Both the position numbers and the translations under genes were made by a program. This document shows positions 1 to 1,316 of a DNA stretch of 1,316 nucleotides, piece after piece. Below the pieces are notes generated by a model. That model was not told where the DNA came from, made no database searches, and worked only from the letters and a program-made list of their open reading frames with translations. Within the stretch, counting starts at the first letter, position 1; every line of letters begins with the position of its first letter. The stretch is from Escherichia coli (lineage in GTDB: Bacteria > Pseudomonadota > Gammaproteobacteria > Enterobacterales > Enterobacteriaceae): NCBI RefSeq assembly GCF_003334335.1, contig NZ_QOWQ01000111.1; one strand, given 5' to 3'.

Positions 1-26
1 GAACAGGTCGAAGTAATACCCGCACG

Positions 27-305
27 TTACCTCCAGATGCGTTGCTGGAATGTGCGGGACGGACGCGGTGGGCGTTCAGAGTAAGGAAGCCTGACGGAGA
101 TTATCCAGTGACGATAATCGAGGCTGAGGGTTTTCCTAAACTCATACCCACGTCTGCGGTAGTTCTGAATCAGCCATTCGGCCTGTTCTTCAGTGCATGG
201 GGCGTGCTGGAACCAGTCAGATTTGAATGCATGAGAACGCCGCCCGTGCCTGCTGGCAAAGACGGCTGAATTATCAGAATTGTATAATTTGGTATCGTGC
301 GCCAT
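27..305 (-). CDS. Hypothetical protein, 92 aa from the first ATG (MAHDTKLYNSDNSAVFASRHGRRSHAFKSDW...RIWR); function unknown
   Basis: Longest ORF in the region. The ORF track starts it at TTG 386, but that codon lies inside the hok terminator, so ATG 305..303 is preferred. SD is weak (GAGA) and no family was recognised. Confidence 0.4.
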   Translation of the reverse strand: MAHDTKLYNSDNSAVFASRHGRRSHAFKSDWFQHAPCTEEQAEWLIQNYRRRGYEFRKTLSLDYRHWIISVRLPYSERPPRPSRTFQQRIWR

Positions 306-377
306 CGGTTGTCTCTGCTGGCGCAGCAGGTGCCAGTTGTTCAGGCTGGCGTGCGAATTGTAAACCAGAATGCCAGG

Positions 378-404
378 AAAAAACAAAACCCGCCGAAGCG
401 GGTT
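378..404 (-). terminator. Rho-independent terminator of the hok transcript
   Basis: Minus-strand reading AACCCGC-UUCG-GCGGGUU (404..387), a GC-rich stem with a UUCG tetraloop, followed by UUGUUUUUU (386..378). No T-run follows on the plus strand, so it is unidirectional for the minus strand. Confidence 0.7.
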
Positions 405-407
405 AAG

Positions 408-416
408 TGCGGGTGC
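408..416 (-). promoter_or_regulatory. 3'-UTR block (fbi-like) complementary to the 5' end of the predicted hok mRNA
   Basis: 9-nt perfect complementarity with 792..800, located immediately 5' of the terminator hairpin in the transcript. Consistent with the fold-back-inhibition pairing described for hok mRNAs. Confidence 0.4.
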
Positions 417-472
417 GTTGAGGATGCCTGACTCATCAGAGGTGGCGAGGGATTTCTCCCCCGCCAGGTCTC

Positions 473-628
473 TTACTCCTCAGGTTCGTAAGCTGTGAAG
501 ACAGTGACCTCCGTCTGGCCGGTTCGGATTCGTACCTCGCAGAGGTCTTTCCTCGTTACCAGTGCCGTCACAATGACGGTAATACAGATGACGATCAGGG
601 CGACTAACATCGCCTTTTGCTGCTTCAT
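473..628 (-). CDS. hok: Hok/Gef-family type I toxin, 51 aa (MKQQKAMLVALIVICITVIVTALVTRKDLCEVRIRTGQTEVTVFTAYEPEE)
   Basis: Manual reverse-complement translation from ATG at 628..626 to TAA at 475..473. SD AAGGAG (643..638) lies 9 nt upstream of the ATG. The protein has the Hok-family hallmarks: ~50 aa, N-terminal hydrophobic helix, conserved LCE motif and C-terminal AYE motif. From memory it is closest to the chromosomal E. coli HokD(RelF)/HokC(Gef) subfamily, differing at a few positions. Confidence 0.9.
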   Translation of the reverse strand: MKQQKAMLVALIVICITVIVTALVTRKDLCEVRIRTGQTEVTVFTAYEPEE

Positions 629-685
629 AGCCTGCTTCTCCTTGCCTTTCGGCGTGTAAGAGGCTAACCTACATGTGACTAGCAT
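473..685 (-). CDS. mok: mok-like regulatory reading frame (70 aa), an in-frame N-terminal extension sharing the hok stop codon
   Basis: ORF-track 70-aa frame starting at ATG 685..683, with SD-like GAGG about 8 nt upstream (697..694 on the plus coordinates). The 19-aa extension MLVTCRLASYTPKGKEKQA is translated across the hok SD. This matches, as I recall, the mok/hok arrangement of chromosomal loci such as mokC/hokC, which share a stop codon. Confidence 0.65.
   Translation of the reverse strand: MLVTCRLASYTPKGKEKQAMKQQKAMLVALIVICITVIVTALVTRKDLCEVRIRTGQTEVTVFTAYEPEE
642..670 (+). promoter_or_regulatory. Putative sok promoter (-35 TTGCCT 642..647, 17-bp spacer, -10 TAACCT 665..670)
   Basis: Hexamers read directly from the sequence with canonical 17-bp spacing. 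The promoter sits inside the mok coding region on the opposite strand, as expected for sok. Confidence 0.45.
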
Positions 686-747
686 GAAATTGGCCTCAGA
701 TTAATGTTAAGCGTCCTGCAAGACGCATAATGTTAACTGGGGCTTTT
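677..747 (+). ncRNA. sok: Putative Sok-like antisense RNA (~70 nt) complementary to the mok translation-initiation region
   Basis: Plus-strand promoter-like TTGCCT-N17-TAACCT (642..670) predicts a start near 675..678. The transcript would be antisense to the mok SD/ATG (683..697). It ends in a long imperfect hairpin (693..743) followed by TTTT (744..747). Size and position match the known Sok RNA layout. Ends are approximate. Confidence 0.55.
693..747 (+). terminator. Putative sok RNA terminator hairpin plus U-tract
   Basis: Imperfect inverted repeat 693..715 / 722..743 with core stem gcgtc/gacgc (711..715 / 722..726) and loop ctgcaa, followed by tttt at 744..747. Confidence 0.45.
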
Positions 748-750
748 CTC

Positions 751-785
751 TGTCTGCCTTACGGTGGCATGCCCGAGGCAGACAG
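751..785 (-). promoter_or_regulatory. Structured hok mRNA leader element: 9-bp inverted repeat (751..759 ctgtctgcc / 777..785 ggcagacag) around a 17-nt loop containing the palindrome ggcatgcc
   Basis: Inverted repeat seen directly. It lies in the predicted 5' leader of the hok transcript, where hok mRNAs carry regulatory stems (tac/ucb region). Confidence 0.5.
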
Positions 786-791
786 CCTCAA

Positions 792-800
792 GCACCCGCA
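792..800 (-). promoter_or_regulatory. 5' leader block (tac-like) perfectly complementary to 408..416
   Basis: Plus 792..800 gcacccgca is the exact reverse complement of plus 408..416 tgcgggtgc. At least 792..797 would be transcribed if +1 is near 797. Confidence 0.4.
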
Positions 801-873: not shown

Positions 874-978
874 TCAGTTCCCTAGTCGATCCATCAAAAA
901 CACAACCAGGCAGTAAACACCCACAACAGCAATAACAGCCAGCGCACCTTCCATTGCCAGTGAGATATCATCCGACAC
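874..978 (-). CDS. Candidate small hydrophobic protein, 34 aa with a GTG start (MSDDISLAMEGALAVIAVVGVYCLVVFLMDRLGN)
   Basis: Strong SD AAGGAGG (988..982) followed 4 nt later by GTG 978..976; stop TGA 876..874. One predicted transmembrane segment. An alternative ATG at 980 in another frame gives a 28-aa peptide but has a 2-nt spacer. Found by manual translation. Confidence 0.3.
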   Translation of the reverse strand: MSDDISLAMEGALAVIAVVGVYCLVVFLMDRLGN

Positions 979-1013: not shown

Positions 1014-1097
1014 TTACCCACACCGACAAATAACATATACTAAAAAAGCGATAGCCATAGCAACGCCTGTAATTGCAAATGCTTCAGGCCAGATCAT
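1014..1097 (-). CDS. Candidate small hydrophobic protein, 27 aa (MIWPEAFAITGVAMAIAFLVYVICRCG)
   Basis: Textbook RBS: AGGAGG (1110..1105), 7-nt spacer, ATG 1097..1095. The start codon overlaps the stop of the upstream ORF as ATGA, suggesting translational coupling. One predicted transmembrane segment. Below the ORF-track length threshold; found by manual translation. Confidence 0.35.
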   Translation of the reverse strand: MIWPEAFAITGVAMAIAFLVYVICRCG

Positions 1098-1276
1098 TGG
1101 CGCACCTCCTGCGGCGGTTCTGGTAACGGCATCCAGTCGGTTACATTGCGGCTCTGTGTTTCGAAAAATTCATCACCATTACGGACTACATCAAAAAACT
1201 CACCGTCTCGATATTGCGCATAAAGAACGAATGCGCCATCACATAAAATAATTACGTGCTGACCATCATCCGGCAT
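1094..1276 (-). CDS. Hypothetical protein, C-terminal 60 aa from the first Met; the frame stays open to the right window edge, so the gene may be 5'-truncated
   Basis: ORF-track frame with stop TGA at 1096..1094. Translation upstream of ATG 1276 remains open through 1315 (…PVTPDGWISCSER-MPDDGQ…). Contains a duplicated acidic motif, DGEFFDVV / NGDEFFET. No family recognised. Confidence 0.4.
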   Translation of the reverse strand: MPDDGQHVIILCDGAFVLYAQYRDGEFFDVVRNGDEFFETQSRNVTDWMPLPEPPQEVRQ

Positions 1277-1316
1277 TCGCTCACTACAGCTTATCCAACC
1301 ATCCGGAGTTACCGGA

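What the first reader, a model, noticed from the sequence alone, without database searches (positions are those of the whole stretch)
27..386. Downstream ORF: start-site ambiguity and an antisense overlapping ORF
The longest minus-strand frame is called from TTG 386, but that codon sits inside the hok terminator hairpin and U-tract, so a start at ATG 305 (92 aa) is more plausible. No convincing sigma70 promoter was found between terminator and ATG, so expression may depend on read-through or the ORF may be a remnant. A 75-aa plus-strand ORF (42..269) overlaps antisense but has only a TTG start. In E. coli K-12 an uncharacterised gene, rem, sits downstream of hokD in the Qin prophage, but I could not confirm similarity from memory.
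Basis: partly seen in the sequence, partly recalled or inferred. Interest (0 to 1): 0.3.

Follow-up and report, generated by a model that had tools for sequence, protein, structure and literature searches.

The report
Prophage gene with structured promoter-leader
The minus-strand ORF is a real, very common prophage gene of unknown function that starts at ATG 305; it is not Rem, the antisense ORF is an artefact, and the stretch between the hok terminator and the ATG is a conserved promoter plus two-hairpin leader that heads the operon ending in the late-gene antiterminator Q.

Summary

**The ORF.** ORF 27..305 (-) is a genuine 92-aa gene.
- All 65 unique homologues are intact, and pN/pS is 0.16 in the core.
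- ATG 305 is the only start shared by every genomic context.
- TTG 386 is the first base of the hok terminator U-tract.
- The protein is unrelated to Rem. In other phages rem and this gene lie side by side, and K-12 carries an intact, unannotated copy between rem and ydfU.
- Residues 27-92 are a widespread 66-aa phage family (phrog_1212, no Pfam, generic beta-alpha-beta-beta fold). Residues 1-26 look like the remnant of a deleted DUF1367 gene fused in frame.
- The plus-strand ORF 42..269 is the exact complementary frame. It has pN/pS above 2 and is interrupted in 25 of 65 homologues.

**The leader.** Bases 298-386 (-) are not empty.
- A -10 hexamer (TACAAT) sits a fixed 12 nt before a hairpin with an invariant CUGAACA loop and covarying stems.
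- A second hairpin holds the AUG in its stem.
- The module recurs across enterobacterial lambdoid phages and has no Rfam match.
- In Gifsy-1 it coincides with the published start site of the antQ operon.

Protein function and leader mechanism remain inferred.

The parts
27..305 (-). Protein-coding gene, 92 aa, ATG start, TAA stop at 29-27. PGAP product WP_032270698.1, 'hypothetical protein'.
   Evidence: Intact in 65 of 65 unique homologues. pN/pS is 0.24 overall, and variable sites by codon position are 26/28/65.
30..227 (-). Codons 27-92: the conserved core, equal to the whole 66-aa phage family (phrog_1212). Predicted beta-alpha-beta-beta fold with a basic C-terminal tail ...PRPSRTFQQRIWR.
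   Evidence: phrog_1212 E 3.9e-37 over residues 27-92. hhalign probability 99.8%, E 2e-30 against the 66-aa family. HMM search of 1.84 billion representatives. AlphaFold models. pN/pS 0.16 and 0.08.
228..305 (-). Codons 1-26: a weakly constrained, predicted-disordered N-terminal extension. Probably the remnant of a deleted DUF1367 gene (or of its short-uORF derivative) fused in frame to the 66-aa gene.
   Evidence: pLDDT below 50 for residues 1-21. pN/pS 0.62. The same leader and ATGGCGCA start head full DUF1367 genes, and also 26-41-aa uORFs that overlap the 66-aa gene by ATGA.
298..366 (-). Conserved promoter-proximal leader module: -10 hexamer, hairpin HP1, hairpin HP2, SD and AUG.
   Evidence: Covariance model R1 scores 73.7 bits, E 1.5e-18. 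No Rfam family matches.
357..362 (-). Candidate -10 hexamer TACAAT. It ends 12 nt before the CTGAAC loop motif, as in nearly all other lineages.
381..386 (-). Candidate -35 hexamer TTGTTT (3 of 6, 18-bp spacer), formed by the terminator U-tract. It contains the TTG that the mechanical ORF call used as a start codon.
   Evidence: Weak: the consensus scan does not report it.
332..350 (-). Hairpin HP1: stem GCCAG (350-346) / CUGGC (336-332), loop CCUGAACAA (345-337). The predicted transcription start is about G350.
   Evidence: Four stem pairs each have 13-15 sequences changed on both sides. Covariation score is 0.256 against 0.105 for shuffles (0 of 500) and at most 0.062 for slid controls. On the model-based alignment it is 0.353 against 0.137. 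Fold.
298..325 (-). Hairpin HP2: UGCGCCA (325-319) pairs with UGGCGCA (304-298). The UG of the AUG and codons 2-3 are in the stem. The loop (318-305) holds the SD-like AGAGA (316-312) and the A of the AUG (305). A competing local hairpin CUGCUG/CAGCAG (329-315) exists in this lineage.
   Evidence: The centroid fold shows HP1 plus HP2, -18.7 kcal/mol, z -2.33. K-12 has a double compensatory change, CGUGCCA/UGGCACG. Second-copy leaders use UGCGCAU/AUGCGCA.
377..404 (-). Intrinsic terminator of the hok/mok transcript: stem 404-387, U-tract 386-377.
1..25 (-). 5' end of the next gene, DUF968/YdfU-family HNH protein, GTG start at 25-23. Its SD GGAGG (34-30) lies in the last two sense codons (TGG AGG) of the 92-aa gene, with 1 nt between stop and start. 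This arrangement suggests translational coupling.
42..269 (+). Antisense 'shadow' ORF. Not a gene.
   Evidence: It is the exact reverse-complement frame, so stops would need the rare sense codons TTA, CTA or TCA. pN/pS is 1.3 overall and 2.3-3.9 over the core. Internal stops occur in 25 of 65 unique homologues. Its phrog_2734 hit shows only that annotators have called it before.

Best explanation
**Shown**
- The minus-strand ORF is a real gene translated from ATG 305 into a 92-aa protein.
- Its last 66 residues are a small phage protein family. In many enterobacterial lambdoid phages that family sits immediately before the RusA and/or DUF968 (YdfU-type HNH) genes, followed by an ORF in the antiterminator Q position that matched the Q-like DUF1133 reference in a minority of loci.
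- The 80 nt between the hok terminator and the ATG form a conserved module. It has a -10 hexamer, then 6 nt later a 5-bp hairpin with an invariant CUGAACA loop, then a second hairpin that carries the Shine-Dalgarno sequence in its loop and the AUG in its stem.
- The plus-strand ORF is a by-product of the complementary frame.

**Inferred**
- The first 26 residues are what is left of the upstream DUF1367 gene after a deletion joined its start to the 66-aa gene.
- The module is the promoter and 5' leader of the distal 'Q operon' (here orf92-ydfU-rusA-Q). The gene therefore does not depend only on read-through of the hok terminator.
- The start-codon hairpin limits translation of the first cistron. 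An untranslated first cistron exposes the transcript to Rho, which would keep Q silent in the lysogen.
- Translation then passes to ydfU through the GGAGG-TAA-C-GTG junction.
- The protein itself most likely acts with the adjacent junction-nuclease genes as a small basic nucleic-acid-binding or partner subunit.
For: **Gene and start site**
- PGAP calls CDS 27..305.
- 65 of 65 unique homologues are intact. pN/pS is 0.16 and 0.08 in the core and tail. Third-position variable sites number 65, against 26 and 28 at positions 1 and 2.
- The ATG and its SD region are shared by all five upstream contexts. The extension to TTG is closed by a stop in the rem and K-12 contexts.

**Family and synteny**
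- phrog_1212. 81 HMM hits, mostly about 66 aa, aligning to residues 27-91. hhalign probability 99.8%.
- The core gene is followed by DUF968 and/or RusA in nearly every lineage sampled, with a Q-type Pfam hit downstream in several distant loci. The Gifsy-1 order is DUF1367, 66-aa gene, NinG, ylcG-like, Q.

**Fusion origin**
- The same leader and ATGGCGCA start precede full DUF1367 genes (PF07105, E 2.5e-93).
- They also precede 26-41-aa uORFs ending in an ATGA overlap with the 66-aa gene.
- The N-terminus is predicted disordered and has pN/pS 0.62.

**Leader structure**
- Covariation counts, covariance-model hits and the fold.

**Promoter**
- The hexamer keeps A at position 2 and T at position 6, and ends 12 nt before the loop.
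- 33 of 33 contexts with weak hexamers carry TGn. CATAAT contexts carry TTGACC, TTGACT or TTGATT at 17-18 bp.
- The Gifsy-1 module has TTGACT-18-CATAAT. Its predicted start at L314 ~2998 is 1,606 nt upstream of antQ.

**Rho**
- In K-12, ydfU rises about log2 2.4 in nusG mutants (log2 2.8 in the rho mutant) while rem does not (about 0.5). The terminator upstream of ydfU is ranked among the strongest (PMC9160355).
Against: - The promoter in this window is weak on paper: -35 TTGTTT (3 of 6), 18-bp spacer, TACAAT, no TGn. The consensus scan does not report it.
- There are no transcript, 5'-end or protein data for this locus or for the K-12 copy. A Cappable-seq supplement search found nothing.
- The Gifsy-1 match rests on a rounded figure quoted second-hand.
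- HP2 varies little, so most of its support is sequence conservation plus a few compensatory cases.
- A competing CUGCUG/CAGCAG hairpin exists in this lineage.
- The leader also occurs in phages that lack the 66-aa gene (L208, L265, L197). Leader and protein are therefore not an obligate pair.
- The Rho link is an inference from K-12 array and qPCR data on a rem-containing arrangement.
Confidence: 0.7

Rival explanations
1. The gene starts at TTG 386 and encodes a 119-aa protein.
For: It is the longest open frame in this window. The extension is open in the hok-terminator context.
Against: - TTG 386 is the first base of the terminator U-tract.
- The extension is closed by an in-frame stop 9 codons upstream of the ATG in the rem context and in K-12.
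- The extra 27 codons overlap a conserved non-coding leader whose stems covary.
- All database proteins are 90-92 aa.
Confidence: 0.02
2. The ORF is a decaying remnant with no function of its own. It is carried along and expressed, if at all, only by read-through of the hok terminator from the early rightward promoter.
For: - The N-terminal 26 codons are weakly constrained (pN/pS 0.62) and look like debris from a deleted gene.
- MG1655 and Sakai RefSeq do not annotate the ORF.
- The region upstream of ydfU in K-12 is strongly Rho-terminated.
Against: - The core and tail are under clear purifying selection (0.16 and 0.08), with a high synonymous rate (pS 0.375).
- There are no frameshifts or stops in 65 unique variants.
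- The 66-aa family is conserved down to about 30% identity in other genera, with conserved synteny.
- A dedicated promoter is likely.
- Read-through from upstream may still add to expression.
Confidence: 0.07
3. The plus-strand ORF 42..269 is a real overlapping antisense gene.
For: It is open for 75 codons here and 137 codons in K-12. Its translation hits phrog_2734 at E 2.4e-28.
Against: - It is the exact complementary frame, which stays open whenever the sense gene avoids TTA, CTA and TCA.
- pN/pS is 2.3-3.9 across the core.
- It has internal stops in 25 of 65 homologues, and the stop position is not conserved.
- It has only a TTG or CTG start.
- The only plus-strand promoter-like match nearby (91-118) lies downstream of its start.
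Confidence: 0.03
4. The TAnnnT element plus HP1 is not a promoter. It is an RNA-level signal inside a read-through transcript: either an AU-rich RNase E site followed by a protective 5' hairpin, or a nut/put-like antitermination signal.
For: - HP1 has an invariant loop on a covarying stem, which is the hallmark of a recognised RNA hairpin.
- In several phages an upstream ORF runs into the element with no terminator before it.
- The window's -35 is poor.
Against: - The hexamer follows DNA-level sigma-70 logic. TGn accompanies weak hexamers in 33 of 33 contexts, and TTGAC-type -35 elements sit at 17-18 bp with CATAAT. An RNase E site would not need this.
- There is no boxA-like sequence, and the loop is not a closed GNRA-like pentaloop.
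- No N gene is annotated in the host prophage's early region.
- A start site is reported at the matching place in Gifsy-1.
- The two readings are not exclusive for HP1 itself.
Confidence: 0.2
5. The 92-aa protein is the K-12 Rem protein or a divergent Rem.
For: It occupies the position between hok and ydfU, as rem does in K-12. Some phage records label neighbouring genes 'rem' or 'toxin to Rem'.
Against: - BLASTP gives no alignment at E <= 100.
- rem and this ORF are separate adjacent genes in LC567818 and in K-12.
Confidence: 0.005

Closest known systems
phrog_1212 / the unnamed ~66-aa enterobacterial phage protein family (e.g. Gifsy-1 STM2620.1n)
   Same: Residues 27-92 align end to end (E 3.9e-37; hhalign 99.8%). 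The neighbourhood is the same: before RusA, DUF968 or NinG, and then Q.
   Different: The window protein carries 26 extra N-terminal residues and is translated from the start codon and leader that belong to DUF1367 in other phages. The family has no Pfam entry and no assigned function.
Rem (b1561) of the K-12 Qin prophage
   Same: It lies downstream of hokD and upstream of ydfU.
   Different: There is no sequence similarity. Rem is absent from this window. K-12 has both rem and an unannotated copy of this ORF.
antQ operon of Salmonella Gifsy-1 (SL2582-SL2579; Hershko-Shalev et al. 2016, PMC4825925, citing Kroger et al. 2013)
   Same: It has the same promoter-leader module (R1 61.4 bits, E 4e-17) in the same position, ahead of the genes leading to Q. 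The published start site, about 1,600 nt upstream of antQ, matches the predicted one at 1,606 nt.
   Different: In Gifsy-1 the first cistron is a full DUF1367 gene and the promoter is strong (TTGACT-18-CATAAT). Here DUF1367 is gone, the promoter is weak, and it abuts the hok terminator. The hairpins themselves are not described in that paper.
Phage Mu com/mom translational control (from my own knowledge of Wulczyn & Kahmann 1991 and Hattman 1991; not checked with the tools)
   Same: The layout is similar: a recognised hairpin sits immediately 5' of a second stem that encloses the start codon of the regulated gene.
   Different: No Com-like protein or sequence similarity was found. In HP2 the SD is in the loop rather than the stem. 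This is an analogy for how it might work, not a membership claim.
Lambda-type nut sites (boxA + boxB) and HK022 put RNAs
   Same: Each is a short hairpin with a conserved loop in an early lambdoid transcript, upstream of terminators that must be passed to reach Q.
   Different: There is no boxA. The loop is a 7-9-nt CUGAACA motif, not a closed GNRA-like pentaloop. The element sits directly on a translation start. No N gene is annotated in the host prophage.
Shadow ORFs on the complementary frame of real genes
   Same: The ORF 42..269 is in the exact reverse-complement register, and its substitutions fall on its own first codon position.
   Different: Nothing differs; it fits this category.

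Membership tests
Rem (K-12 b1561) | Detectable sequence similarity to Rem | tested here: not met
   BLASTP gives no alignment at E <= 100. Separate rem and orf92 genes coexist.
phrog_1212 / 66-aa phage family | Full-length profile match | tested here: met
   E 3.9e-37, profile positions 1-66 of 66 on residues 27-92. hhalign E 2e-30.
phrog_1212 / 66-aa phage family | Position immediately upstream of RusA/DUF968-type nuclease genes in the nin region, before Q | tested here: met
   DUF968 starts 1 nt after the stop, followed by RusA and DUF1133. The same holds in distant members.
Any Pfam / NCBIfam / PADLOC family | Profile match above threshold | tested here: not met
Protein-coding gene (sense frame) | Purifying selection and frame conservation across homologues | tested here: met
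   65 of 65 intact. pN/pS 0.24 overall and 0.16/0.08 in the core and tail.
Overlapping antisense gene | Purifying selection and frame conservation in the plus frame | tested here: not met
   pN/pS 1.3 (2.3-3.9 in the core). 25 of 65 interrupted.
Sigma-70 promoter | -10 hexamer with A at position 2 and T at position 6, at a fixed position | tested here: met
   TACAAT at 362-357. It ends 12 nt before CTGAAC, as in nearly all lineages.
Sigma-70 promoter | -35 hexamer at 16-18 bp, or TGn extended -10 | tested here: inconclusive
   The window has only TTGTTT at 18 bp (3 of 6) and no TGn. Other lineages clearly have one or the other: 33 of 33 with TGn, or TTGACC/TTGACT.
Sigma-70 promoter | Mapped primary 5' end | not testable with these tools
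   The only evidence is indirect. The Gifsy-1 antQ start site is quoted as 1,600 nt upstream of antQ, against 1,606 predicted. A K-12 Cappable-seq supplement search found nothing.
Structured cis-regulatory RNA | Base pairs maintained by compensatory changes | tested here: met
   HP1 has 4 pairs with 13-15 double changes each. Covariation is 0.256 against 0.105 (0 of 500) and at most 0.062 for slid controls. A4 gives 11 of 13 pairs compensatory, but that alignment is model-fitted.
Known Rfam family | Covariance-model hit over 298-366 | tested here: not met
   There is no hit over the leader in the window or in 7 canonical loci. The weak isrK hit (27 bits, below the gathering score of 50) covers only the hok 3' end and terminator, 383-464.
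Lambda-type nut site | boxA consensus 5' of the hairpin, GNRA-like closed pentaloop, and a cognate N protein | tested here: not met
   There is no boxA. The loop is 7-9 nt, and the U...A closing pair is not conserved. No N gene is annotated.
Translationally coupled gene pair (orf92 to ydfU) | Stop and start within a few nt, with the SD inside the upstream ORF | tested here: met
   GGAGG (34-30), TAA (29-27), C, GTG (25-23). This is conserved in all loci. Functional coupling was not tested.

The most novel reading that the evidence does not exclude
HP1, with its invariant CUGAACA loop on a freely covarying 5-bp stem, may be the operator for an unidentified trans-acting factor, either protein or RNA. 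Together with the AUG-sequestering HP2, it would gate translation of the first cistron. Through Rho-dependent polarity, that gate would decide whether transcription reaches the antiterminator Q. This would be an undescribed riboregulatory checkpoint for late-gene expression in lambdoid prophages that lack an annotated N. Its downstream ORF is present in about 83% of complete E. coli genomes, and the module was also found in prophages of Salmonella and other enterobacteria, including Stx-phage relatives.
Probability: 0.25. Interest if true: 0.75.

Novelty: new member of a known kind. Interest (0 to 1): 0.45.

Why it matters
**Annotation**
- The work settles a start codon and removes a false antisense gene.
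- It separates this gene from Rem.
- It flags an intact, conserved ORF missing from the MG1655 (NC_000913.3) and Sakai reference annotations.

**Biology**
- The stretch that looked like an empty gap after the hok terminator is a conserved promoter and structured leader. It heads the operon that ends in Q, the switch for lysis and, in Stx phages, for toxin genes.
- In K-12 the homologous spot coincides with one of the strongest Rho-dependent terminators.
- If the hairpins control first-cistron translation, they offer a concrete, testable explanation for two things: how these prophages keep Q silent, and how they release it without a lambda-type N/nut system.

**Evolution**
- The gene is also a clear example of a new N-terminus created by deleting the upstream gene while keeping its regulatory region.

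Tried and rejected
- **Profile searches.** Pfam on the 92-aa protein and on a 30-member alignment of the 66-aa family found nothing. NCBIfam gave only noise. PADLOC found nothing for orf92, DUF968 or a 66-aa member.
- **Rfam.** Searches of the window and of seven canonical leaders found no family over the leader.
- **isrK.** The weak isrK hit (27 bits) was followed up. Real isrK lies downstream of antQ in Gifsy-1. The window hit reflects only a terminator-like hairpin and was rejected.
- **Lambda-type nut reading of HP1.** Rejected: there is no boxA, and the loop is not a closed pentaloop.
- **The 66-aa protein as the factor that binds HP1.** Rejected as a general explanation, because the leader also occurs in phages without that gene.
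- **Locus retrieval.** The search for related loci with the diverse family alignment failed because no stretch was conserved enough.
- **K-12 start-site data.** The Cappable-seq supplement held no position near 1,644,63x. Two other papers were not held.
- **Literature.** A full-text search for the loop and stem sequences returned only unrelated primers.
- **The 'ydfU' start site in PMC9160355.** It maps about 1,200 nt upstream of their reverse primer, which is at the rem promoter region and not at the leader. It does not bear on the leader promoter.
Full report
**1. What the window is**

All genes read on the minus strand. The order of transcription is:
- a frameshifted DUF551 gene;
- a 34-aa ORF;
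- hok/mok with its sok antisense RNA (Rfam sok, 117.6 bits, 623-797);
- an intrinsic terminator;
- the ORF in question;
- the first 25 bases of a DUF968 (YdfU-family) gene.

An essentially identical stretch lies in a Qin/Rac-like lambdoid prophage of E. coli SW070917. There the downstream order is DUF968, RusA, then a DUF1133 Q-like protein. The upstream early region carries a DicA-like repressor, YdaS/YdaT, replication genes and dicB, and no N gene is annotated.

**2. Checking the observation**

- The longest minus frame is 27..386, from TTG, 119 aa.
- ATG 305 gives 92 aa.
- The plus strand has a 75-aa TTG ORF at 42..269.
- The terminator stem is 404-387 and the tail TTGTTTTTTC is 386-377. 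TTG 386 therefore opens the U-tract.
- The consensus scan reports no minus-strand promoter in the gap.

**3. Is it a gene, and where does it start?**

I collected homologous DNA from IMG/VR prophage contigs, K-12, Sakai and further phage loci, giving 65 unique 279-nt versions.
- All 65 keep the frame open with no indels.
- In the first 35-sequence set, variable sites fall 26/28/65 on codon positions 1/2/3.
- Nei-Gojobori pN/pS in the sense frame is 0.24. By region it is 0.62 for codons 1-26, 0.16 for codons 27-75 and 0.08 for codons 76-92.
- The ATG and the SD-like region before it are shared by all five upstream contexts: hok terminator, rem, and three others.
- In the rem context and in K-12 an in-frame stop lies 9 codons upstream, with no start codon between.
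- PGAP and all 160 protein clusters found use the ATG and give 90-92 aa.

ATG 305 is the start. The ORF is present at 8,527 places in 4,530 of 5,426 complete E. coli genomes.

**4. The antisense ORF**

ORF 42..269 is in the exact reverse-complement register of the sense codons. Stops in it would require the sense codons TTA, CTA or TCA. Three results argue against it being a gene:
- its pN/pS is 1.3 overall and 2.3-3.9 across the core;
- it has internal stops in 25 of 65 homologues;
- its end is not conserved.

Its hit to phrog_2734 shows only that the same shadow frame has been annotated in phage records. It is not a gene.

**5. It is not Rem**

- K-12 Rem (83 aa) gives no BLASTP alignment with the 92-aa protein, even at E <= 100.
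- In Stx2a phage LC567818 the order is hok(gef), rem, this ORF, ydfU.
- In K-12 MG1655 an intact 92-aa homologue lies at NC_000913.3 1,644,306-1,644,584 (-), in the 'gap' between ydfU and rem.
- That copy is not in the NC_000913.3 feature table, nor is the Sakai copy in NC_002695.2. PGAP-annotated K-12 genomes call it 'hypothetical protein'.

**6. What the protein is**

No Pfam, NCBIfam or PADLOC family matches.
- PHROGs gives phrog_1212 (unknown function). The whole 66-position profile aligns to residues 27-92.
- A profile search of 1.84 billion representatives finds 81 relatives. Most are about 66 aa and align to positions 27-91. hhalign against 30 of them gives 99.8% probability.
- AlphaFold predicts residues 1-21 as disordered. 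The core is beta-alpha-beta-beta with a basic C-terminal tail. The 66-aa family model has pLDDT 84.

Gene neighbourhood is the one consistent clue. Across lineages down to about 30% identity, the 66-aa gene is followed at once by RusA and/or a DUF968 HNH protein. A further ORF follows, and it is Q-like in a minority of the loci tested. In Gifsy-1 NinG takes that place, and the order is DUF1367, 66-aa gene, NinG, ylcG-like, Q.

DUF968/YdfU is classed as a His-Me finger nuclease and neighbours RusA and Q (PMC5714182). One paper also relates DUF968 to lambda Orf fused to HNH (PMC4118853).

My working inference, at low confidence, is a small basic partner or nucleic-acid-binding subunit of this junction-nuclease set.

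**7. Origin of the N-terminus**

In most phages the leader described below and the start ATGGCGCA (Met-Ala-Gln/His) belong to a ~198-aa DUF1367 gene (PF07105, E 2.5e-93). The 66-aa gene follows it with an overlapping stop and start.

In several lineages DUF1367 is reduced to a 26-41-aa uORF. That uORF still begins MAQ... and ends in an ATGA overlap with the 66-aa gene.

In the Escherichia lineage the remnant is in frame with the 66-aa gene, giving 92 aa. This fits the disorder and weak constraint of codons 1-26. I rate the fusion origin as likely, about 0.7. It is inferred from comparison, not reconstructed step by step.

**8. The leader**

The 80 nt between the terminator and the ATG are conserved at the DNA level across phages whose downstream proteins have diverged strongly. 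The parts in the window, on the minus strand, are:
- TACAAT at 362-357;
- HP1: stem 350-346/336-332 and loop CCUGAACAA;
- HP2: UGCGCCA 325-319 paired with UGGCGCA 304-298. Its loop holds the SD-like AGAGA and the A of the AUG, while the UG of the AUG and codons 2-3 lie in the stem.

The RNA fold from 350 gives exactly HP1 plus HP2 as the centroid (-18.7 kcal/mol, z -2.33).

A pattern scan of viral contigs and a covariance model found the module once per phage locus, always directly before the first gene of the cluster that leads to Q. The window scores 73.7 bits.

HP1 stems take at least a dozen different sequences, including GCCAG/CUGGC, CAGGG/CCCUG, GCUGG/CCAGC, AUAGG/CCUAU, AACGG/CCGUU, UAGGG/CCCUA and AAAAUGG/CCAUUUU. 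The loop core CUGAAC(A) is invariant.

Covariation counts:

| Alignment | Result |
|---|---|
| MAFFT, 39 unique leaders | Four HP1 pairs each have 13-15 sequences changed on both sides. Covariation is 0.256 against 0.105 in shuffles (0 of 500) and at most 0.062 when partners are slid. |
| Model-fitted | 0.353 against 0.137, with compensatory changes at 11 of 13 pairs. |

The model-fitted alignment leans toward the structure by construction, so its figures are upper-end estimates.

HP2 is mostly invariant, but two cases support it.
- K-12 shows a double compensatory change, CGUGCCA/UGGCACG.
- Weaker second copies of the module lie in front of unrelated small ORFs and use UGCGCAU.../...AUGCGCA (L092 2448-2516, L231 4813-4885).

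No Rfam family matches.

**9. Promoter evidence**

Across 87 distinct upstream contexts the hexamer ends 12 nt before CTGAAC in nearly all lineages, and it follows sigma-70 rules.
- Every context with a weaker hexamer (TATTAT, TACACT, TATATT, TATAGT, TATCAT, TAGACT; 33 of 33) has TGn.
- CATAAT contexts have TTGACC, TTGACT or TTGATT at 17-18 bp.
- TATAAT contexts often have TTGTAA at 18 bp.

The predicted start is the first base of HP1.

Gifsy-1 has TTGACT-18-CATAAT and the full leader (R1 61.4 bits, a sequence not used to build the model). Its predicted start is 1,606 nt upstream of antQ. [quoted passage not shown] 2013 (PMC4825925). This is indirect but independent support.

In the window the promoter is weak: TTGTTT(386-381)-18-TACAAT. 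The TTG that the ORF finder took as a start codon is more plausibly the 5' end of a -35 element.

**10. How it may work (inferred)**

A promoter directly after the hok terminator frees the downstream operon from read-through.
- HP2 puts the AUG in a stem, which should limit initiation on the first cistron.
- In K-12, ydfU is strongly derepressed in rho and nusG mutants and by bicyclomycin, while rem is not. The terminator upstream of ydfU is ranked among the strongest Rho-dependent ones (PMC9160355).
- That terminator must lie in the leader, orf92 or 5'-ydfU interval.

Poor translation of the first cistron, leading to Rho termination and so to no Q, is a coherent model for silence in the lysogen.

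The invariant HP1 loop suggests a specific partner that could relieve this block, but I could not identify one. The 66-aa protein is not a general candidate, because the leader occurs without it.

**11. Verdict**

The finding as written resolves into ordinary annotation points.
- The start codon is settled.
- The antisense ORF is dismissed.
- The Rem idea is refuted.
- The ORF is a real, common, uncharacterised prophage gene.

The added value is the promoter-leader module, which is conserved, structured, uncatalogued in Rfam, and placed at the entry to the Q operon.

Noticed in passing
L003 3307-3585 (-) = NC_000913.3 1,644,306-1,644,584; L002 3027-3305 (-) in Sakai NC_002695.2: An intact 92-aa homologue of the window ORF lies between ydfU and rem in K-12 MG1655, and a copy lies in Sakai Sp6. 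Neither is in the reference feature table. PGAP-annotated K-12 genomes such as NZ_CP032667.1 call it 'hypothetical protein'. The published 'Rho-dependent terminator upstream of ydfU' falls on this unannotated gene or its leader.
   Followed up: partly
L092 2448-2516; L261 7006-7074; L231 4813-4885: Weaker second copies of the promoter/HP1/HP2 module (35 and 27 bits) sit about 0.9-1.2 kb upstream of the main one. They lie in front of unrelated ORFs: a 7-aa ORF MRNYSKH, and a small hydrophobic protein MRIKKKSLFF.... Their HP2 arms are changed to pair with the different start region (UGCGCAU/AUGCGCA). This suggests a small regulon rather than a single site.
   Followed up: partly
window 337-345 (-) and all homologous leaders: The HP1 loop core CUGAACA on a 5-bp stem has the format of a tRNA anticodon arm: a 7-nt loop, U at loop position 2, and GAA (the Phe anticodon) in the middle. 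I did not test whether this is meaningful.
   Followed up: no
window 383-464 (-): There is a weak Rfam isrK match (27.1 bits, gathering score 50, E 0.0016) over the hok mRNA 3' end and terminator. Real isrK lies downstream of antQ in Gifsy-1, so this is probably only hairpin-plus-terminator resemblance.
   Followed up: yes
window 30-35 (-) and the equivalent codons in L086 and L092: The conserved C-terminal Trp-Arg codons (TGG AGG) double as the Shine-Dalgarno sequence of the next gene in several lineages. The extreme conservation of the protein's last residues is therefore under a double constraint.
   Followed up: partly
window 623-797 (-), 473-685 (-): A complete hok/mok/sok type I toxin-antitoxin locus is present: Rfam sok at 117.6 bits, HokD 51 aa at 473-628, and the mok frame to 685. 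It sits immediately upstream of the Q-operon promoter. The terminator U-tract supplies the candidate -35 of that promoter.
   Followed up: partly
window 874-978 (-), 1014-1097 (-), 1094-1316 (-): A 34-aa annotated hypothetical protein (WP_001278450.1) and a 27-aa hydrophobic ORF lie between a DUF551 gene and hok. In the closest genome the DUF551 gene is frameshifted with an internal stop. None was examined further.
   Followed up: no
L211, minus-strand coordinates: 4325-4645: In one phage the stop codon (TGA) of the upstream ORF lies inside the invariant HP1 loop, C-TGA-AC. In other phages the upstream ORF ends just before the stem. The upstream gene and the leader therefore overlap in different ways in different phages.
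   Followed up: no
L190 1638-1706, L193 1719-1785, L100/L102/L103 1552-1619: In some phages the first gene after the leader is neither DUF1367 nor a remnant. It is a 130-136-aa LexA_DNA_bind-type winged-helix protein, which overlaps the 66-aa gene. The leader is therefore kept while the first cistron is swapped.
   Followed up: partly
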